A stretch of DNA of 55,238 bases from Bryobacterales bacterium (GTDB taxonomy: Bacteria; Acidobacteriota; Terriglobia; Bryobacterales; Bryobacteraceae). The notes under the pieces were generated by a model. The model searched no databases, had not been told where the DNA came from, and saw nothing but the letters and a program-made list of their open reading frames with translations. Positions 23,455 through 32,121 of this stretch are shown here, piece by piece. A program made the translations under genes and the position numbers. Numbering within the stretch: the stretch's first letter is position 1; each line of letters begins with the position of its first letter. Where the stretch lies: assembly GCA_003169195.1 (NCBI GenBank), contig PMQB01000436.1:1-55238 (forward strand), written 5' to 3'.

Positions 23455-24177
23455 TCACCCAATCAACAGCGCCTTACCGGCCAAGGCGGCCGCCCCGTCG
23501 GTGCTCTCGATAAATCTCCGTCCTAACTCCGATTCAACCTCCAACGCCGCCAGCACCTCCGCATGCACCCAGGCCGACTCCCGCGCCGCCTCCACACTCC
23601 AAGAGGCAACCACTTGCTCCACCGTATCCACCGCCGCCAACGAATCGCCTGGCAAACTCACCATCAGCTCGGTCTTCGCCTGCTCCACCAACGAATCCAG
23701 CGTCGTATTCACTTCCGTATACGCCGTGTATTCAACCGTCCCATGCCGCGGCTGCGATCAAGTATTCACCACCGCCACCGCCAAGTCTCGATTGATATGC
23801 GCATTCACCCCCGCCAACGCAAACTGAATCCGCGCCAGCGCAGCATTTCCCCGCTGCTCAAGCAGCACGCGCCAACTCTCCGGCAATGCGCCACCACCCA
23901 ACCAACCTCGCAACGCCGCAAAATACAAATTGGCGAAAGCAAAGTCAAGGGTCGCGATGTACGCCGACCCCGCTGCCCCACTGCTAAAATCATTCCGCGC
24001 CACCCGGTCTTTCACTGCCAACGTAACTTCCAGATAGAGTGTGTTAAACCACTTCAGCCCGTCGCGCGTCCCATCCAACAGCGCATCAACCCCCCGTAGC
24101 TTCGCCACTACGTCATCAATCGACGCCGCATCCTTCGCCACCAGCGCCGCTACTTGATCGTCATAAGCAAACTTCAT
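23455..24177 (-). pseudogene. DUF5995-like ORF interrupted by a single in-frame TGA (23758..23760)
   Basis: From the ATG at 24177: MKFAYDDQVAALV...WFNTLYLEVTLAVKDRV...FANLYFAAL...FALAGVNAHINRDLAVAVVNT-TGA-SQPRHGTVEYTAYTEVNTTLDSLVEQ...EAARESAWVHAEVL. The two ORF-track pieces (23758..24426 and 23455..23712) are in the same frame. Confidence 0.5.
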
Positions 24178-24786: not shown

Positions 24787-24914
24787 AATGACTTGAAACG
24801 CTTTGCCGCTGGAACGCACATAAAAGAGCGCCTCAAATGCGTAGTTCGCAGCGCGTCGTCCCGCGACCGAACACAACAAAATCAATTGCAAAGGAATAAG
24901 GAGAACACACCTAT

Positions 24915-26600
24915 ATGCCCAACGTAACGCCGCCATCCAGTGGCCTCGGAAGCAATTCCAATTACTTCCTAAACAACAGCTGCAACAACCTCAAAGGGGT
25001 TTCAACCACTATCGCTGTTTCAACCGACATCGTGGCAAACGCCGGTTTTGGATTTCAGTTGAACGCCTATTCGCCGAAGAACGAGACCTGCGCCATTCAG
25101 CAATACGTCATCTCTGTCGACACCAGCGGCCAAATGACGTGCATCGTCAACAACTGGCAGAACGCGTCCAAGGCGCTCATCAACAATTGGGTATCGCTCT
25201 ACAAGCTCCCAAGCGCTACCCTGCCGGCAGGCTACCAATGCCGCATCAATTTGCAGAACGATAATTCCGGCAACATCACCGCCGCCAATTTCTCCGTCGT
25301 CTCGTTCGGGGTCGCGCCCGCACAAGGCAGTGCTCTCGACGCCTATTGGGGATCCGATAGCAGCCAACATGTGAACTTCATCGGTACCGATGGACACATT
25401 CACGAACTCTACATTCACCCTGGCGCCGGCTGGGTTGACAACAATCTAACGAACTTCGCCCGGGCAGTTCCGCCCGCGGCCGGCACCGCGCTACACGCCT
25501 ATTGGGGTTCCGATAGCAGTCAACACGTCAACTACGTGGGCACAGACGGCCACATACACGAGATATACATTCACCCCGGCGCCAGCTGGGTCGACAACGA
25601 TTTGACAAAATTAACAAATGGTGTCCAGCCCGACGGAGGCACCGCCCTCACTGGCTACTGGGGTTCCGATAACAGTCAACACATCAATTACATTGGCACC
25701 GACGGCCACGTCCACGAACTCTACATTCACCCCGGCGCCAACTGGGTCGACAATAATCTCACTAACTTTGCACGAGCCGTGCTGCCCGTGGCGGGCACCG
25801 CAATCGATGGCTATTGGGGAAGCGACAGCAGCCAGCACGTCAACTACATCGGGACCGATGGCCACGTACACGAACTCTACATCCATCCAGGCGCAAACTG
25901 GGTCGATAACAACTTAACCAACATGGCCCGCGCCGTCTCACCCGCCGCTGGCTCCCACCTCGATGCCTATTGGGGCACAGATAGCAGCCAGCATATCAAC
26001 TACCTCGGCACCGATGGCGAAGTTCACGAACTATACATTCACCCCGGCGCGAATTGGGTCGACAACAATCTCTCCAACTTTGCTCCAGGCGTCCGCCCGG
26101 CACCCGGCACCAAACTCGATGGTTACTGGGGCAGCGATAGCAGCCAACACGTCAACTTCATAGGAACGGATGGCCATATCCACGAACTGTACATTCATCC
26201 CGGCGCCAGTTGGATCAATAACGATCTAACAGAGCTTGTCCTCGCAAACGTCACACAAACCCTCACGTCCATCTCTGGCGTTTCCACGTCTGACCTCGCC
26301 CCCATCGTCGCTTTCGAACTCGACTTCGTCGGCTACGATAACGGGCAAAGCACCACGCTGTCCTCCGGAGCAGGCACCATCACCTATGTGGCCTCCGCCC
26401 CGATGACTGTCGTGAACGCCGAGCCATCCTGTTGCGAGTTCGACGGCGGCACTCTCGAAACGGCCAACACTTCCTATGGCCAGCTACCTACCGGCTCCAG
26501 CACAAGCTTCGTCCAGACATTCTCCAAAGCCGCCACGATCATCAAAGCACCGAAACGAAATGGCTTGCGAAAAGCGCGCGCCTTAGCCGCCGTGCGCTAA
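24915..26600 (+). CDS. Six-blade beta-propeller lectin-like repeat protein with unknown N- and C-terminal segments
   Basis: AAGGAG RBS and no signal peptide. It has six tandem 52-aa units of consensus GTALdaYWGSDSSQHVNYIGTDGHIHELYIHPGAnWVDNNLTNfaraV.PaA. Confidence 0.85.
   Translation: MPNVTPPSSGLGSNSNYFLNNSCNNLKGVSTTIAVSTDIVANAGFGFQLNAYSPKNETCAIQQYVISVDTSGQMTCIVNNWQNASKALINNWVSLYKLPSATLPAGYQCRINLQNDNSGNITAANFSVVSFGVAPAQGSALDAYWGSDSSQHVNFIGTDGHIHELYIHPGAGWVDNNLTNFARAVPPAAGTALHAYWGSDSSQHVNYVGTDGHIHEIYIHPGASWVDNDLTKLTNGVQPDGGTALTGYWGSDNSQHINYIGTDGHVHELYIHPGANWVDNNLTNFARAVLPVAGTAIDGYWGSDSSQHVNYIGTDGHVHELYIHPGANWVDNNLTNMARAVSPAAGSHLDAYWGTDSSQHINYLGTDGEVHELYIHPGANWVDNNLSNFAPGVRPAPGTKLDGYWGSDSSQHVNFIGTDGHIHELYIHPGASWINNDLTELVLANVTQTLTSISGVSTSDLAPIVAFELDFVGYDNGQSTTLSSGAGTITYVASAPMTVVNAEPSCCEFDGGTLETANTSYGQLPTGSSTSFVQTFSKAATIIKAPKRNGLRKARALAAVR
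25326..26240 (+). repeat. In-frame 156-nt tandem coding repeat, 6 units (the last is 135 nt)
   Basis: Unit starts at 25326, 25482, 25638, 25794, 25950 and 26106. The units differ mostly at synonymous sites. Confidence 0.9.
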
Positions 26601-28848: not shown

Positions 28849-31800
28849 ATGCGTTCCGGAGGCCCCTCGTTCGTTCTTCCTATTCTCTGCGTGTTCTTTG
28901 CCATCACCCTCGTCGGCTGCGGCGGCGGATCAGCGCAATCATCAGCCAATCCCATCCCACAAACCGGTGATTTCTCGCTTTCCGTCACGCCGAACAGCGT
29001 CACCGTTTTTCCAGCCGCGCCGGTTACACTCACTATCTCAGTCACGGCTACCGGCTCATTTAATTCCACTGTCACCGTCAGCATTTCCGCTCTGCCATCC
29101 GCCATTACCGCGGCGCCCGTATCCATCTCTGTCACACCAGGAACTCCGCAAAGCATCACCCTCACAGCCGCGTCAAGTGCCACCGCCACAACTGCCACGG
29201 TAAATTTCAACGCAACCTCTGGGTCGCTCAGTCACTCCGCATCTGTAGCTCTAAGCCTACAAATTCCCCCGCAAACACTCACAACTCGCATCCGCTATTT
29301 CAATACAGGAACCGGGATTTCGAACACGGAATACATAGCGCCCGTCGCGCTCTACAACGGTCCGTCCGGGCATTTCTTCTTCGTCGACGGATCACAAAAT
29401 CAGGTATTCGCGTTTGACGGCAAGACCGAAAAACAACTCAGCTCCGTTTATATTCCGAACGCTTTGTCCTTAGATCAGGCACCCGATGGCAGCGCTGTCT
29501 ACGTCGCCACCAGCGTGGGTGACATCTACACTTTCGATCCCGCCACTCTGGCCATTACCGAGTTGATCAAGTCTTCGCAAATTGGCCCATCTGGCTATCC
29601 AACGTTCGCAATATTCCCTCTAGCCAGCGGCAACTTTGTGTTGATGGGCGATCCGTCTTCTCTAGGCGCCACTCAAACCTATAACTCCATTGCTGTTTGG
29701 AACAAAACTAGCAATACCTTAACGAAATATATTACTGCCGGCGGCGCGCAAACGTCCCTGACTGGCCAAAGCTTCTGCGGATCGCTAGTAGGCGTTGGAA
29801 ACATAGCAGTCAACACTACACGAACCAAAGTTTTCCTTGGCGGTTATTTCTCCGACCCTACCATTTGTCAATTCGATCCCGCGACTGGCCAGTCCGCAAC
29901 CGCCAATGCGCCAAACCTTCCTTACAATGGCGGAGGAACTCAAGCGCTGCCCACACCCGACGGGAACTTCCTCACTTTTGGCGATGGCAACCTCTACATC
30001 TGGAACGGTGCCGGTATGACCATTTCCAAGCAGTTCACTTTTCCGGCCTATCTATCCGCAGGATCGGGCGTCCTAAGTCCCGACGGCAACACACTTTATT
30101 ACTCTCCTTACAGTGCTGGATTGGTCCTGGCTTACGACTGGCGTACCTTCACACAGAAAGGCTGGGCTAGCGAGCCGATAGCAAATCTCAACGGTGGGTT
30201 GGTGCCGCTGGTCATCGATAACACCGGCCTCATCGGAGGTACCGTCGGCAGCATTATTAACGGCGGCTTTGGGTTCGCCGACGTCGCTAATCTTCAAACA
30301 AGCGGCTCCGTCTACGGCACTTGGATGGAGGGCCCATACGACGCCGATGTGAATGTAGGCCCTACCAGCGGCGGAACGCCAGTGCGATTCGCTTACGTGC
30401 CGAACAGTCAAAGTGCTACCGCTTTCTATTTCGATGATCAGGCCGTCGCTAATTTCACTGTTGCCAGTGACACCTCAACCACCGCCGTTTCTCCCCCTCA
30501 CGCTACGGGCACTGTCGATTTAGCCCTTACCACATCTGGGGGTGCCGTCCTCGTGGGCTTTAACGCCTTTAGCTACGGGCCGTCCGTGACTCAAGTAATC
30601 GGCTTCCTGTCCATCGCCGAAGGCGGAGGCACCGCGACCGTTCTTGGCTATGGCTTCTCACTGCAAACTGTGAGCGACGCGCCGCAAGTGCAGGTTGGAA
30701 CCCAAACTGTGCCGATCACTTCTTACTCCGCCAACGTGAACGGTGAGAATAGCATCCCCTATCAAACTTTTCAGTTCACGATCCCGCCTGGCCAACCGGG
30801 AACAACCCTGCCCATCACCATTTCCAACCAGTACGGTTCCACCAAAGCGCCCACGTCAATCAAATATCTTCCGGCCATTCAAACTTTCCCCTTGCCCGGA
30901 TCGAATCTTGCCCAAGGCGTTTATGACGCCAAGCGCCAGCTCTACTACTTCACCGACCTAACCAAAATACAGGTTTTCTCACGGAACAGCATGAGCTGGC
31001 AGTCGCCCATCTCCTTACCAAATCCAACTAAAGGCACGCAAGACTTGGTTGGCATCACGCTCTCTCCGGACGGTACTAAAATGGCGATTTCAGACGACGG
31101 CACTGCGTCAATATACGTCCTAGATACGGCCACTCTGTCAGTCCTCAATACGTTCTCCGTCGCTTCCGGCGACTCCTATCCTTGCGGAATTGCAATCTCC
31201 GACTCCGGCATCGTTTACTTCGCCTCTTACGAGACAACAACCGGCGGTGCGTCCACGTTTCACCGATTGGACACCACCACCGGAATCGTTACCTCCTATG
31301 CGGCCGAGCCAGCCTTCAACCAGACTGACCAGTTCGACTCGCACGTTCTGATCACTCACGATAACGCCAGCGTCTTCTTCATCGCCGGGGACACCAACTT
31401 CCTCTACAAGGTAGACACCGCAACCAACGACGGCGGCTATGTTCCGGATCTTGCCGTCGGTTTAAATAACCTAGTGGGGCCTACCAGCTTGGCCCTTTCT
31501 CCAGACGGCACAACCTTACAGGCGGCCGGCGCGCTTACTGACAGCAGTGGCAATCCACTCGCCTCCATCGGTCAAACGTATTCCTTTAGCTTGGCGCGCA
31601 GACCTCCAGCCGAGGGAATCAGGTTTAGCGCAGACGGGAAACTCTTGTTCCAGGCTGACGAGCAAGCTATTACCGTTATTGATACGGCCACCGCCTTGCC
31701 GATTCAATTAATAGGCCTGCCCACAACCCCAGCGAATTCTTTTGATCCGCTTGTCTCCGACAACACCGATAACACCCTAGTGGCAATTCTATTGCCTGGC

Positions 31801-32121
31801 AGTGGCATTGCCCTTATTGACCTATCGCAGGTGCCCGAGCCCGCTGATCGCTCCGGCCGACCCATCGGTCTCCGCACATCCACTATCGCAATCAGGCCGC
31901 CGACACTGCTCGCAACACTGCAGGCAGTAAACATGCCCAAATCTAGGCCCCTCCGCCGATCCTCGCTCGCGAGCCGCCGCGGCGGATTTGACCTCTCGCA
32001 GCAAAACAAAACTATCTTGCAGAACCCAGAAACGAGGCGAACAAACGCCGAATTCGGGGACGTGCTACCCGTTACACCGAATGCAAAAATCGCCCCCCGA
32101 AAATCTCAGTCACAGCACTAG
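28849..32121 (+). CDS. Large surface lipoprotein with Ig-like, IPT/TIG-like and beta-propeller repeats
   Basis: Lipobox FFAITLVGCGGGS. An Ig-like segment (FSLSVTPNSVTV...VTVSISALPSAITA) is followed by propeller-type repeats (DGSAVYVAT..., DGNTLYYS...) and two IPT-like segments (GPTSGGTPVRF..., GGGTATVLGYGF...). Confidence 0.85.
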   Translation: MRSGGPSFVLPILCVFFAITLVGCGGGSAQSSANPIPQTGDFSLSVTPNSVTVFPAAPVTLTISVTATGSFNSTVTVSISALPSAITAAPVSISVTPGTPQSITLTAASSATATTATVNFNATSGSLSHSASVALSLQIPPQTLTTRIRYFNTGTGISNTEYIAPVALYNGPSGHFFFVDGSQNQVFAFDGKTEKQLSSVYIPNALSLDQAPDGSAVYVATSVGDIYTFDPATLAITELIKSSQIGPSGYPTFAIFPLASGNFVLMGDPSSLGATQTYNSIAVWNKTSNTLTKYITAGGAQTSLTGQSFCGSLVGVGNIAVNTTRTKVFLGGYFSDPTICQFDPATGQSATANAPNLPYNGGGTQALPTPDGNFLTFGDGNLYIWNGAGMTISKQFTFPAYLSAGSGVLSPDGNTLYYSPYSAGLVLAYDWRTFTQKGWASEPIANLNGGLVPLVIDNTGLIGGTVGSIINGGFGFADVANLQTSGSVYGTWMEGPYDADVNVGPTSGGTPVRFAYVPNSQSATAFYFDDQAVANFTVASDTSTTAVSPPHATGTVDLALTTSGGAVLVGFNAFSYGPSVTQVIGFLSIAEGGGTATVLGYGFSLQTVSDAPQVQVGTQTVPITSYSANVNGENSIPYQTFQFTIPPGQPGTTLPITISNQYGSTKAPTSIKYLPAIQTFPLPGSNLAQGVYDAKRQLYYFTDLTKIQVFSRNSMSWQSPISLPNPTKGTQDLVGITLSPDGTKMAISDDGTASIYVLDTATLSVLNTFSVASGDSYPCGIAISDSGIVYFASYETTTGGASTFHRLDTTTGIVTSYAAEPAFNQTDQFDSHVLITHDNASVFFIAGDTNFLYKVDTATNDGGYVPDLAVGLNNLVGPTSLALSPDGTTLQAAGALTDSSGNPLASIGQTYSFSLARRPPAEGIRFSADGKLLFQADEQAITVIDTATALPIQLIGLPTTPANSFDPLVSDNTDNTLVAILLPGSGIALIDLSQVPEPADRSGRPIGLRTSTIAIRPPTLLATLQAVNMPKSRPLRRSSLASRRGGFDLSQQNKTILQNPETRRTNAEFGDVLPVTPNAKIAPRKSQSQH

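What the first reader, a model, noticed from the sequence alone, without database searches (positions are those of the whole stretch)
24915..26600. Six nearly identical 52-aa blades: a His-rich propeller lectin-like protein with no signal peptide, inserted between two unknown half-domains
Residues 138-442 are six tandem units: GTAL.aYWGSDSSQHVNYIGTDGHIHELYIHPGAnWVDNNLTNfaraV.PaA. The blade logic (aromatic, ..QHV.Y.G.DG.I.EL, ..GW, ..LT) resembles the repeats of fucose-binding propeller lectins. From memory these are the AAL/RSL type and the Photorhabdus PLL type.

Four things are unusual:
- The blades are far more alike than in those lectins. The 36-aa core is almost invariant.
- The DNA copies differ mainly at synonymous sites. 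For example, the GTDGHIHE stretch in units 1 and 2 differs in 6 of its 8 codons with no amino-acid change within it. So the similarity reflects strong purifying selection on each blade, not recent amplification or assembly collapse.
- Each blade contributes four conserved His residues (QH, GH, IH, IH), hinting at metal- or pH-dependent chemistry.
- The propeller sits between an N-terminal segment of about 135 aa (GFGFQLNAYSP...QQYVISVD...) and a C-terminal segment of about 120 aa (IVAFELDFVGYDNG...) that I cannot assign. These may be two halves of one domain.

There is no secretion signal. The neighbours are a small P-loop NTPase and the broken DUF5995-like gene.
Basis: partly seen in the sequence, partly recalled or inferred. 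Interest (0 to 1): 0.7.

Follow-up and report, generated by a model that had tools for sequence, protein, structure and literature searches.

The report
Sugar-binding propeller nested inside unknown domain
A soil-bacterium gene encodes a histidine-rich, ring-shaped sugar-binding module, a distant relative of known fucose lectins, inserted into a loop of a widespread but unstudied domain that in other bacteria carries many different lectin modules.

Summary
ORF 24915-26600 (+), 561 aa, carries six in-register 52-aa units (aa 137-448). They are 54-85% identical in protein and 66-76% in DNA, with dN/dS 0.03-0.28 and saturated synonymous sites.

The lectin reading is supported:
- Pfam Fungal_lectin (AAL) scores above its gathering cut-off.
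- NCBIfam beta_propeller_lectin gives E 1.5e-11.
- An AlphaFold model (pLDDT 90) matches Photorhabdus PLL/PHL and the six-bladed AAL lectins.

The two flanks are two halves of one domain of about 250 aa. This domain is contiguous in hundreds of other proteins (at least 1,304 clusters at 50% identity) and has no Pfam or NCBIfam model. It has no signal peptide and is usually fused to ricin-B, FG-GAP, hemopexin, tectonin or tachylectin modules. Its predicted fold is a ConA-like beta-sandwich, closest to G1 glutamic peptidases, but profile comparisons find no sequence homology.

Caveats:
- Seven blades is the family norm.
- Five independent assemblies of near-identical strains carry a seven-unit allele. 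The window's six-unit form is a one-unit in-frame deletion seen nowhere else.
- Only three of the four His are conserved across the family.

Verdict: a new subfamily and nested architecture of a known lectin kind, joined to an uncharacterised domain.

The parts
24898..24903 (+). Shine-Dalgarno-like AAGGAG, 11 nt before the ATG
   Evidence: Read directly from the sequence.
24915..26600 (+). Whole gene: 561-aa nested two-domain protein with no signal peptide (stop codon included)
   Evidence: ORF list. The start is conserved in homologues. AlphaFold model has mean pLDDT 90.4 and pTM 0.75.
24915..25322 (+). N-terminal half (aa 1-136) of the ~250-aa beta-sandwich domain. Carries invariant N16, G44, Q48 and Q63, and Cys23.
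   Evidence: Aligns colinearly with the first half of contiguous homologues. Conservation over 112 sequences. Eight beta-strands at pLDDT 90-96.
25323..26258 (+). Six tandem 156-nt / 52-aa blades (aa 137-448). Units: 25323-25478, 25479-25634, 25635-25790, 25791-25946, 25947-26102, 26103-26258. Predicted six-bladed beta-propeller of the PLL/AAL lectin kind.
   Evidence: repeats and dN/dS. (Pfam PF07938 above cut-off). (NCBIfam beta_propeller_lectin, E 1.5e-11). (four strands per blade; Foldseek hits to PLL/PHL/AAL).
25395..25417 (+). 23-nt stretch identical in units 1 and 2 of the seven-unit allele. This is the crossover zone of the one-unit deletion that makes window unit 1 a chimera.
   Evidence: Base-by-base comparison with L003. 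Every diagnostic base 5' of the stretch comes from unit 1 and every one 3' of it from unit 2.
25544..25633 (+). Cluster of 11 substitutions in unit 2, causing 5 amino-acid changes relative to the seven-unit allele. The other ~1,600 nt of the gene have none.
   Evidence: No other unit of the gene is the donor.
26259..26537 (+). C-terminal half (aa 449-541) of the beta-sandwich. Carries invariant P463, E515 and Q534, the E/Q468 and N/D470 positions, and Cys506.
   Evidence: pLDDT 85-97.
26538..26597 (+). Basic, probably disordered C-terminal tail (IIKAPKRNGLRKARALAAVR). A related I[IRH]K.GK.RP tail recurs in homologues.
   Evidence: pLDDT 34-61. Homologue sequences.
24981..24983 (+). Cys23 codon, partner of Cys506 (26430-26432). 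Probable disulfide stapling the two halves of the sandwich.
   Evidence: Perfect covariation over 110 sequences that have a residue at position 23: C/C in 104, and both Cys lost together in the other 6.

Best explanation
The gene encodes a two-module 'chimerolectin' with no signal peptide.

Module 1 is a beta-propeller of the PLL/AAL lectin superfamily. It belongs to a distinct His-rich subfamily with the blade motif Y-x6-QHVNF-x3-DGHVHEL-x8-W-x2-NDLT. It has six blades here and seven in almost all relatives. It replaces the tight turn of one beta-hairpin of module 2 ('VVDNxGNxxANVT' in contiguous relatives).

Module 2 is a conserved ~250-aa ConA-like beta-sandwich of an uncharacterised family. 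Its two halves are probably stapled by a Cys23-Cys506 disulfide.

Inferred mechanism:
- The propeller binds glycans multivalently in pockets between blades. The pockets would be built from the conserved aromatic residues (Y/W on strand A, W on strand D), a His at the position of the fucose-binding Arg of AAL, and the conserved Glu.
- Because His stands in for Arg, binding may depend on protonation. That would fit the acidic peat and soil bacteria that carry the family.
- The propeller thereby anchors or orients the sandwich domain. A conserved polar surface on the sandwich (Q48, N50, Q62/Q63, E/Q468, N/D470, E515, N518, Q534, Y491, Y521) binds or acts on a second ligand.
- The protein would act outside the cytoplasm after non-classical release, as the PLL lectins do.

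Shown here: repeat anatomy, selection pattern, fold predictions, remote homology to lectins, domain nesting, family size and partner domains.
Inferred, not shown: sugar binding, the role of the His residues, the disulfide, the location, and the activity of the sandwich.
For: Repeats and selection.

Lectin kinship:
- Pfam PF07938 scores 30.3 bits against a cut-off of 25.3.
- NCBIfam beta_propeller_lectin gives E 1.5e-11 over residues 152-452.
- Foldseek hits PLL2/PHL at E 4e-15. AAL-family propellers superpose with TM 0.74-0.79 on a pLDDT-90 model.

One split domain:
- The fused flanks align end to end with contiguous domains.
- phmmer with a contiguous copy hits the query in three colinear pieces, E 1.2e-15.
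- A profile of the flanks finds contiguous homologues at 45-55% identity and 93-100% coverage, including stand-alone proteins of 254-267 aa.
- Cys23 and Cys506 co-vary perfectly.

A constant module with swappable lectins:
- At least 1,304 clusters at 50% identity carry the sandwich domain.
- Its partners are FG-GAP, ricin-B, tectonin, DUF346, hemopexin, tachylectin, BNR and CBM_4_9.

The same His-propeller serves as an appendage of secreted peptidases of families G1, G3 (neprosin), S53 and C70/C39.

Blade conservation over 779 blades: H16 98%, H25 91%, H27 88%, E28 94%, W37 96%.

Register against AAL blades: QH aligns with R24, E with E36 and W with W (statistically weak, but the same register as the Pfam hit).

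PLL lectins also lack signal peptides yet are found extracellularly (PMC12203525).
Against: - No binding data exist for any member of this subfamily.
- HMMER finds no solved structure by sequence. NCBIfam scores are far below the family cut-offs, so ligand specificity cannot be transferred.
- The canonical Arg of the AAL triad is absent: no blade position has Arg as majority.
- The sandwich has no Pfam, NCBIfam or PADLOC match, and its activity is unknown.
- There is no conserved gene neighbourhood to lean on.
- The disulfide and extracellular location are inferred for a protein with no leader.
- I could not inspect model coordinates. Blade closure and the packing of the halves rest on TM-scores, pTM 0.75 and covariation, not on measured contacts.
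Confidence: 0.6

Rival explanations
1. Lectin-targeted acid peptidase. The beta-sandwich would be a very divergent glutamic (G1/eqolisin-like) peptidase. Its Gln/Glu pair (Q63 with E468 or E515) would hydrolyse proteins, and the propeller would deliver it to glycosylated targets. This would parallel the bona fide G1, G3 and S53 acid peptidases that carry the same propeller.
For: - Foldseek of the sandwich model ranks scytalidoglutamic peptidase first (2ifr, E 1.4e-5, prob 1.0, TM 0.43/0.54). YncM and the B. subtilis protease CPAVM1 follow.
- The family's invariant polar residues are Gln (Q48, Q63, Q534) and one Glu (E515). There is no invariant His, Lys, Arg, Asp, Ser or Cys nucleophile. This is the composition of a Gln/Glu dyad.
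- Read by eye, 'AIQQ63YV' lines up with 'AILQ53TG' and 'PIVAFE468' with 'AEFIIE136'. The SGP sequence was verified against 1s2b.
- The same propeller is fused to true Peptidase_A4, neprosin and sedolisin domains.
Against: - Profile-profile comparison of the family with G1 peptidases gives probability 0.1-1%.
- No member hits PF01828 even at E 10.
- None of the G1 hallmark motifs (SNWaG, AWVGIDG, WYEWyP, AEWIVEDF) is present.
- Position 468 is Gln in 38 of 112 members, which a catalytic Glu would not tolerate.
- TM about 0.5 is only fold-level. Legume lectins and PL7/PL14 lyases appear in the same list.
- There is no signal peptide or propeptide, unlike known G1 enzymes.
- The sandwich model used was a homologue's (pLDDT 77), not the window's own.
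Confidence: 0.15
2. Metal-binding propeller rather than a lectin. Each blade would present a three-His cluster: H16 on strand B, and H25 and H27 as an H-x-H pair at the start of strand C. This resembles beta-sheet Zn/Cu/Ni sites such as that of carbonic anhydrase. The ring would then carry six or seven metal ions for catalysis, metal storage or redox chemistry.
For: - Three His are 88-98% conserved over 779 blades, more than is needed for fold alone.
- All 25 His of the protein sit in the propeller.
- The H-x-H-E motif, with a further His on the neighbouring strand, is a classical metal-site geometry (general knowledge, not tested here).
Against: - Every detectable relative by sequence or fold is a metal-independent lectin.
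- In other proteins the module sits where carbohydrate-binding modules sit.
- H27 is replaced by Arg or Tyr in 11% of blades, and H25 by Asp or other residues in 9%.
- Whether the three side chains face one pocket could not be checked without coordinates.
Confidence: 0.1
3. The six-blade count is an assembly or strain artefact. The functional gene in this population has seven blades, like PLL. The window's copy would come from an assembler jumping through a 23-nt repeat-internal identity, or from a rare deletion allele.
For: - Five independent assemblies (L001-L004, L083) carry an ungapped seven-unit gene. It is identical or 99.8% identical outside the deletion.
- 87 of 121 family proteins have seven blades.
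- The six-unit junction is absent from JGI contigs, while the seven-unit junction is present.
- The breakpoint lies exactly in the longest in-register identity between units 1 and 2.
- The same contig also has a nonsense codon in the neighbouring DUF5995 gene.
Against: - The deletion is exactly in frame and in register.
- AlphaFold closes a six-bladed ring with pLDDT about 90, and AAL-type six-blade lectins are functional.
- Units differ by about 25% in DNA, so collapse by ordinary k-mers is unlikely.
- Close relatives show 1-7 units.
- Propeller fragments can assemble as oligomers (PMC6805158), so real copy-number polymorphism by unequal crossing-over is plausible.
Confidence: 0.35
4. Lectin-like bacteriocin or anti-eukaryote toxin. 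The family would be a set of leaderless killing proteins. Swappable lectin modules would choose the target cell surface and the sandwich would be the toxic part. Models are the LlpA-type lectin-like bacteriocins and the fungal chimerolectins MOA and LSL.
For: - The architecture is one constant domain plus many alternative lectin modules.
- All members seen lack a leader.
- The genes stand alone with no fixed neighbours.
- Copy-number and sequence variation is concentrated in the recognition module.
- The resemblance to LlpA, MOA and LSL rests on my own knowledge and was not tested.
Against: - No immunity gene, secretion system or toxin-family match was found.
- There is no pore-forming or nuclease fold.
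- The reading is purely analogical.
Confidence: 0.15

Closest known systems
Photorhabdus PLL family lectins (PLL, PLL2-5, PHL) and relatives CV39L/BP39L
   Same: - Best structural matches (Foldseek E 4e-15 to 1e-12).
- Detectable by sequence through NCBIfam beta_propeller_lectin, E 1.5e-11.
- Four-stranded 'W-motif' blades of about 50 aa with binding sites between blades.
- Seven blades in nearly all relatives of the window protein.
- No signal peptide, yet found extracellularly (PMC12203525).
   Different: - Only 13-15% identity.
- Scores are far below NCBI's family cut-offs (44 against 200 bits).
- HMMER finds no PDB hit.
- The window copy has six blades.
- Blades are His-rich (QH...GHxHE) and far more alike.
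- PLLs are single-domain proteins, whereas this propeller is nested in another domain.
AAL family of six-bladed fucose lectins (AAL, AFL/FleA, AOL, SapL1; RSL/BambL as two-blade trimers), Pfam PF07938
   Same: - The Pfam model scores above its gathering cut-off.
- The whole six-blade ring superposes with TM 0.74-0.79 and rmsd about 4 A.
- Same blade logic and register: aromatic on strand A, a polar residue at the second position of strand B, Glu on strand C, Trp on strand D.
   Different: - The fucose-binding Arg is replaced by a 98%-conserved His, and no Arg is conserved anywhere in the blade.
- 13-18% identity.
- AAL blades are much more divergent from one another.
- AAL lectins are stand-alone proteins.
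G1 glutamic peptidases (scytalidoglutamic peptidase, aspergilloglutamic peptidase), Pfam PF01828
   Same: - Nearest solved fold to the flanking beta-sandwich.
- A Gln/Glu-dominated set of invariant residues.
- True G1 domains occur fused to the same His-propeller.
   Different: - No sequence or profile similarity.
- G1 motifs are absent.
- There is no signal peptide or propeptide.
- The position that would match E136 varies between E and Q.
Chimerolectins and lectin-like toxins (fungal MOA and LSL; Pseudomonas LlpA bacteriocins). Comparison from general knowledge.
   Same: Leaderless proteins that join a lectin module to a second, non-lectin module. The lectin module decides the target.
   Different: - Different folds: ricin-B with a papain-like or aerolysin-like domain, or MMBL tandems.
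- No toxicity or second activity is known here.
- The lectin is inserted into its partner domain rather than attached end to end.
Highly repetitive, recently or independently amplified beta-propellers (PMC9218822, PMC6805158)
   Same: - Blades more than 60% identical.
- Copy number varies among close relatives.
- Units within one protein are more alike than units across orthologues.
   Different: Synonymous sites between units are saturated here. The amplification is therefore old and maintained by selection, with only occasional unequal crossing-over.

Membership tests
AAL-type fucose lectins (Pfam PF07938 Fungal_lectin) | Sequence matches the family HMM above the curated gathering score | tested here: met
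   30.3 bits against a cut-off of 25.3, E 3.7e-7. Residues 135-230 align in register with profile positions 148-243. The margin is small. Several homologues also pass (P0118 49 bits; P0047 25.1, just below).
AAL-type fucose lectins (Pfam PF07938 Fungal_lectin) | Six-bladed beta-propeller of four-stranded blades | tested here: met
   The AlphaFold model (pLDDT 90.4) has 6 x 4 strands. Foldseek gives TM 0.74-0.79 (target-normalised) and rmsd 3.4-4.3 A against AOL, AFL, AAL and SapL1. This is a prediction, not an experiment, and relatives have seven blades.
AAL-type fucose lectins (Pfam PF07938 Fungal_lectin) | Arg-Glu-Trp/Tyr fucose-binding triad in most inter-blade sites | tested here: not met
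   Glu (94%) and Trp (96%) are conserved. No blade position has Arg as majority. The position aligned to AAL R24 is His in 98% of 779 blades.
AAL-type fucose lectins (Pfam PF07938 Fungal_lectin) | Binds L-fucose | not testable with these tools
   Needs a glycan array, ITC or SPR.
PLL family of seven-bladed lectins (NCBIfam NF052348 / NF052350) | Sequence reaches the curated family score | tested here: not met
   NF052348 scores 44 bits against a cut-off of 200 (E 1.5e-11). NF052350 (CV39L) scores 19.9 against 350. phmmer and hmmsearch against PDB sequences give 0 hits.
PLL family of seven-bladed lectins (NCBIfam NF052348 / NF052350) | Seven W-motif blades | tested here: not met
   The window has six units. 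The near-identical allele P0001 and 87 of 121 family proteins have seven.
PLL family of seven-bladed lectins (NCBIfam NF052348 / NF052350) | Same blade fold and topology as solved PLL/PHL structures | tested here: met
   The top 22 Foldseek hits are PLL-family chains, E 4e-15 to 2e-12, probability 1.0.
PLL family of seven-bladed lectins (NCBIfam NF052348 / NF052350) | Two-Trp hydrophobic pocket and polar Arg/Glu/Gln pocket between blades | tested here: inconclusive
   Two aromatic positions per blade are conserved (Y8 91% / W9 64%; W37 96%), as is one Glu. No residue-level structural alignment to PLL was available.
G1 glutamic peptidases (Pfam PF01828 Peptidase_A4), considered for the flanking domain | Sequence or profile homology to the family | tested here: not met
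   No PF01828 hit for 22 members at E up to 10. hhalign probability is 0.1-1% against profiles of 4 and of 51 G1 sequences.
G1 glutamic peptidases (Pfam PF01828 Peptidase_A4), considered for the flanking domain | Two-sheet beta-sandwich fold of scytalidoglutamic peptidase | tested here: inconclusive
   2ifr is the best PDB match (E 1.4e-5, TM 0.43 by query and 0.54 by target, rmsd 6.8 A). The model was a homologue's domain at pLDDT 77. Other ConA-like proteins follow closely.
G1 glutamic peptidases (Pfam PF01828 Peptidase_A4), considered for the flanking domain | Catalytic Gln53/Glu136 dyad | tested here: inconclusive
   Q63 and E515 are invariant in 112 sequences. The residue that lines up by eye with E136 (E468) is Gln in 38 of 112. 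No coordinates were available to measure distances.
G1 glutamic peptidases (Pfam PF01828 Peptidase_A4), considered for the flanking domain | Secreted pre-pro-enzyme (signal peptide and propeptide) | tested here: not met
   The conserved domain starts at residue 4-10 of the protein. There is no leader in any architecture examined.
Unnamed ~250-aa beta-sandwich family (the 'GLGSNSNY...GFGFQLNAYS...QQY...APIxAFELNLVG...SSGAGTITY...ETAN.YG' domain) | Colinear match over the full domain, with the invariant residues N16, G44, Q48, Q63, P463, E515 and Q534 | tested here: met
   The fused flanks match contiguous members at 45-55% identity and 93-100% coverage, E down to 1e-96. All seven invariant residues are present in the window protein.

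The most novel reading that the evidence does not exclude
The flanking beta-sandwich would be the catalytic or toxic core of a large, undescribed family of leaderless bacterial chimerolectins. One candidate is a new class of Gln/Glu (glutamic-type) hydrolase that has converged on, or diverged beyond recognition from, the G1 peptidase fold. Its target would be chosen by interchangeable lectin modules. The His-rich propeller would be an acid-switched (protonation-gated) or metal-assisted glycan receptor adapted to acidic soils. The nesting of the propeller inside the core domain would couple glycan binding sterically to the active cleft.
Probability: 0.15. Interest if true: 0.8.

Novelty: new variant of a known kind. 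Interest (0 to 1): 0.5.

Why it matters
- It defines a His-rich branch of the PLL/AAL propeller lectins with no solved structure and no known ligand. This branch is widespread in Acidobacteriota, Actinomycetota (including Mycobacterium) and acidophilic Alphaproteobacteria, and is repeatedly attached to acid peptidases.
- Replacement of the canonical sugar-binding Arg by His suggests lectins whose binding is tuned by pH. That would be useful as switchable glycan probes.
- It exposes a domain family of at least 1,304 clusters that has no database model. This family is always leaderless and always partnered with lectin modules, which makes it a clear target for finding a new activity.
- The six- and seven-blade alleles differ by one clean crossover. 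They offer a natural experiment on how propellers change blade number.

Tried and rejected
Searches that found nothing:
- Sequence searches of the PDB with the protein, the full alignment, the flank profile and a single-blade profile: no meaningful hit.
- Pfam on the flanks of 22 members at E up to 10: nothing.
- NCBIfam and PADLOC on the flank domain and the neighbours: nothing informative.
- BFVD viral fold search of the sandwich: only generic jelly-roll or tail-fibre hits with E above 1e-3.
- Plasmid tblastn: only distant hypothetical proteins.
- Literature on CPAVM1 and YncM: nothing usable on function.

The G1 peptidase idea:
- It was tested three ways by hhalign and rejected as demonstrable homology.
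- My by-eye motif register is therefore offered only as a low-probability rival.

I modelled a contiguous homologue (P0071 residues 1-270) instead.
- Single-blade hhalign against AAL/RSL blades gives the expected register but no significance.

Context:
- Gene neighbourhoods of four homologues show no conserved partner, so an operon-based function was rejected.
- Promoter and terminator scans were at chance level.
- P0101, a G1 N-half followed by the propeller, was checked as a possible parallel nesting. It lacks the C-half and ends at a stop.

Other readings rejected:
- Gene conversion from another unit as the source of the 11 clustered substitutions: no donor unit exists.
- Reverse-strand ORFs inside the repeats (for example 25020-25418 and 25611-25886): treated as shadows of the repeat, with no support.


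Full report
1. THE OBSERVATION

ORF and start
- An ORF runs from 24915 to 26600 on the + strand and encodes 561 aa. Its ATG is the first possible start after the upstream stop.
- AAGGAG lies 11 nt upstream.

Repeats
- The motif YWG recurs six times at exactly 52-residue spacing, which defines units at aa 137-448, i.e. nt 25323-26258.
- Tandem Repeats Finder independently reports a 156-nt period, 5.7 copies, 75% matches and score 732.
- Units are 54-85% identical as protein and 66-76% as DNA.
- A Nei-Gojobori calculation between all unit pairs gives a proportion of synonymous differences of 0.43-0.86, mostly at or beyond saturation. Non-synonymous differences are 0.05-0.25. dN/dS is 0.03-0.28 wherever dS is finite.

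Histidines
- All 25 histidines of the protein lie in the repeat region and none in the 249 flanking residues.

2. WHAT THE REPEATS ARE

Sequence evidence
- Pfam's Fungal_lectin model (PF07938, the Aleuria aurantia lectin family) matches at 30.3 bits, above its gathering score of 25.3.
- NCBIfam's 'beta propeller lectin' domain model matches residues 152-452 at E 1.5e-11. The CV39L-family model matches at E 3e-4. Both are far below NCBI's membership cut-offs.
- HMMER finds no solved structure by sequence, whether with the protein, a 41-sequence profile or a single-blade profile.

Structure evidence
- An AlphaFold2 model built on 41 homologues has mean pLDDT 90.4 and pTM 0.75, and shows six blades of four strands each.
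- Foldseek against the PDB puts 22 chains of the Photorhabdus PLL/PHL lectins first (E 4e-15 to 2e-12).
- Next come the six-bladed AAL-family lectins AOL, AFL/FleA, AAL and SapL1. These superpose over their full length with TM 0.74-0.79 and rmsd 3.4-4.3 A.

Conclusion
- The repeat region is a remote relative of the PLL/AAL propeller lectins.
- It passes the Pfam test narrowly, fails NCBI's stricter family tests, and has the fold.

3. THE BLADE MOTIF AND THE HISTIDINES

- I aligned 779 blades from 120 family proteins to the unit HMM.
- Conserved positions, in unit numbering: L5 92%, Y8 91%, H16 98%, V17 90%, H25 91%, H27 88% (otherwise Arg or Tyr), E28 94%, L29 92%, W37 96%, D41 91%, L42 96%.
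- No position has Arg as its majority residue.
- Against AAL and RSL blades (sequences verified against 1iub), the alignment register is: QH16VNF with QR24VYF, HE28L with RE36A, and W37 with the strand-D Trp.
  - This blade-level alignment is not statistically significant.
  - It is the same register as the in-frame Pfam match.
- The Glu and Trp of the AAL fucose site are therefore kept, and the Arg is replaced by a nearly invariant His.
- Inference: the His takes over hydrogen bonding to the ligand and makes binding sensitive to protonation.
- A three-His metal site (H16, H25, H27) cannot be excluded without coordinates.

4. SIX OR SEVEN BLADES

- The closest homologue, P0001 (91% identity), has 613 aa and seven units.
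- It is encoded on four syntenic metagenome contigs from four samples. They are 97-99.5% identical to the window in DNA and identical to one another across the gene.
- A fifth contig, L083, carries the same ungapped seven-unit gene at 99.8% identity.
- Relative to these, the window has:
  - an exact 156-nt in-frame deletion;
  - 11 substitutions, all within nt 630-719 of the gene.
- Window unit 1 is a perfect chimera. Every diagnostic base 5' of a 23-nt stretch shared by units 1 and 2 comes from unit 1, and every one 3' of it from unit 2.
- A 35-nt probe for this junction finds nothing in the JGI metagenome collection.
- Across 121 family proteins, 87 have seven blades.
- The split-domain proteins closest to the window show 2-7 blades, and one protein (P0134) has a single blade.
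- I cannot tell a real unequal-crossover allele from an assembly jump. Both fit.
- AlphaFold closes the six-unit version confidently, six-bladed relatives (AAL) are functional, and fragments of identical blades are known to form oligomeric propellers (PMC6805158).

5. HOW THE REPEATS EVOLVE

- It is not the whole story.
  - Units within one protein are 71-79% identical (window, P0004, P0007, P0052).
  - Units compared across orthologues are 55-70% identical.
  - No diagonal of positional orthology appears, except weakly for the last unit.
- Together with the chimeric unit and the copy-number series, this points to slow concerted evolution or lineage-specific re-amplification acting with selection.
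- High blade identity and independent amplification are documented as general features of propellers (PMC9218822).

6. THE FLANKS ARE ONE DOMAIN

Evidence that the flanks form one domain
- Joining aa 1-136 to aa 441-561 gives a sequence that aligns end to end with contiguous segments of proteins such as P0034, P0053, P0071 and P0078.
- phmmer with the contiguous segment of P0071 hits the window protein in three colinear pieces, full-sequence E 1.2e-15.
- A profile of the joined flanks retrieves hundreds of proteins in which the domain is uninterrupted, at 45-55% identity and 93-100% coverage. Some are stand-alone proteins of 254-267 aa.
- In those proteins a tight hairpin (for example YSVVDNHGNSLANVT) occupies the place where the window has FSVVSFGVAPAQ-[propeller]-LVLANVT. 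The propeller replaces a beta-turn.
- Cys23 in the N-half and Cys506 in the C-half co-vary perfectly over 110 sequences that have a residue at position 23. Both are present in 104, and both are lost together in the other six.
  - This supports direct contact, probably a disulfide.
  - It therefore suggests an oxidising location.

Size and partners of the family
- An exhaustive profile search of 1.84 billion representative proteins finds 1,304 clusters at E up to 1e-3, and 646 at E up to 1e-30.
- The domain usually sits at the C-terminus.
- The N-terminal partners in 90 representatives are FG-GAP (14), ricin-B (8), tectonin, DUF5648, DUF346, hemopexin, tachylectin, BNR and CBM_4_9.
- None of the members examined has a signal peptide.
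- The domain has no Pfam, NCBIfam or PADLOC model.

7. WHAT THE SANDWICH MIGHT BE

Fold
- That model has pLDDT 77 and pTM 0.81 and is an all-beta sandwich.
- Foldseek's only hits below E 1e-3 are scytalidoglutamic peptidase (2ifr and 2ifw, E 1.4e-5 and 5.9e-5, TM 0.43/0.54) and B. subtilis YncM.
- The protease CPAVM1 follows, then PL7/PL14 alginate lyases and legume lectins.
- The viral library gives nothing significant.

Why the G1 link is suggestive
- The same His-propeller is fused to true G1 (Peptidase_A4) domains, to a neprosin-type domain, to a sedolisin and to a C70/C39-like peptidase. Several of these have signal peptides.
- The sandwich's invariant polar residues are three Gln and one Glu.

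Why it is not established
- Profile-profile comparison with G1 peptidases, using profiles of 4 and then 51 sequences, gives probabilities of 0.1-1%.
- The G1 hallmark motifs are absent.
- The residue that would match the catalytic Glu136 by eye is Gln in a third of the members.
- I therefore file the domain as a ConA-like sandwich of unknown activity, with 'divergent glutamic-type hydrolase' as a low-probability rival.
- Two positions vary only as E/Q (468) and N/D (470). Together with the abundance of invariant Gln, Asn and Tyr, this looks more like a hydrogen-bonding ligand site than an acid-base catalytic centre. This is inference.

8. CONTEXT AND DISTRIBUTION

- The gene stands alone between a 128-nt and a 133-nt spacer.
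- Its neighbours are an AAA_28 NTPase, a DUF5995 gene with a nonsense codon, an Abhydrolase_10 protein and a large lipoprotein. They are conserved only among near-identical strains.
- Homologues in a long Acidobacteriaceae MAG contig, in Tunturibacter empetritectus and in another long contig have unrelated neighbours.
- In species-representative genomes, the full split architecture occurs in Acidobacteriota (Bryobacteraceae, Terriglobia, Acidobacteriaceae, Tunturibacter), in a Verrucomicrobia MAG and in a proteobacterial MAG.
- Propeller-only or differently fused forms occur in Actinomycetota (including Mycobacterium), Acetobacteraceae, Methylocella and Roseiarcus.
- The window most likely comes from an acidobacterium. 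This rests on the best flank matches (Bryobacteraceae, 77% identity) and on the typical CarboxypepD_reg TonB-type neighbours.

9. MECHANISM I COMMIT TO (confidence about 0.6)

- The protein is a leaderless chimerolectin.
- The propeller binds glycans multivalently between blades, using the conserved aromatics, the Glu, and His in place of Arg.
- The nested geometry holds the propeller next to the conserved polar face of the sandwich, which binds or acts on a second ligand.
- The protein works outside the cell after non-classical release, as reported for PLL2 and PLL3 (PMC12203525).
- Shown: anatomy, selection, folds, remote homology, nesting, family size and partner repertoire.
- Inferred: ligand binding, pH dependence, the disulfide, the location and the function of the sandwich.

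10. NOVELTY AND SCORE

- The propeller is a new, structurally uncharacterised subfamily of a known lectin kind.
- Nesting it in a hairpin of a large unannotated domain family is a new architectural variant.
- Nothing here is categorically new, and the most striking number (six blades) may not be real.
- The partner domain is the more interesting unknown.
- Interest: 0.5.

Noticed in passing
window 23455-24177 (- strand); stop at 23758-23760: The DUF5995 gene is interrupted by an in-frame stop (Cys140 to stop, with Ala141 to Ser next to it). Contig L001 (compared base by base) has an intact 240-aa ORF, and L002-L004 carry a 240-aa gene call at the same place. The flanking AAA_28 gene is 100% identical in protein.
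   Followed up: yes
window 25544-25633 (unit 2 of the repeat): Eleven substitutions (five amino-acid changes) relative to the seven-unit allele are packed into 90 nt. The rest of the 1,686-nt gene has none. No other unit of the gene matches the variant stretch, so intragenic conversion is not the source.
   Followed up: partly
P0017, P0012, P0015, P0016, P0057 (relatives; L008 in Bryobacteraceae): Proteins with flanks 76-80% identical to the window's (76-80% over the N-terminal flank) carry a different blade type (GYETSFNSQQHVNYIGSDGHVRELVYTDHWSHTDLT, five copies) in the same insertion site. The inserted propeller is diverging, or has been swapped, faster than its host domain.
   Followed up: partly
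P0034, P0036, P0053, P0037 (relatives, 923-979 aa): Three-module proteins. An N-terminal propeller has the canonical RSL/AAL Arg-Glu-Trp motif (VSRIPNSMELW..GSIED.FWY.G.NWQ). The uninterrupted sandwich domain follows, then a C-terminal seven-blade His-propeller. Two different lectin propellers sit on one effector domain.
   Followed up: partly
L082 267-1976 and 2036-3277: P0101 has the N-terminal half of a true G1 peptidase domain running straight into a seven-blade His-propeller, and then stops without the catalytic C-half. The next gene encodes yet another repeat protein (IIQSDFRSGSHGNFEVVVP..ELWHYWHDNSD..PWQQGQ).
   Followed up: partly
window 26538-26597 (aa 542-561) and the C-termini of homologues: A basic, low-confidence C-terminal tail (IIKAPKRNGLRKARALAAVR here; MIRKxGKxRP in many relatives) is conserved in character across the sandwich family. 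It might be a sorting or membrane-binding signal in these leaderless proteins.
   Followed up: no
window 28849-32121 (+): A 1,090-aa protein with a lipoprotein-like N-terminus and weak YVTN/PQQ-type beta-propeller repeat matches lies two genes downstream. No link to the lectin gene was found.
   Followed up: partly
P0045 (relative, 639 aa): A signal-peptide-bearing C70/C39-like cysteine peptidase carries seven His-propeller blades that are up to 100% identical to each other (mean 89%). This is a recently amplified or homogenised copy of the same module, in contrast to the old repeats of the window.
   Followed up: partly
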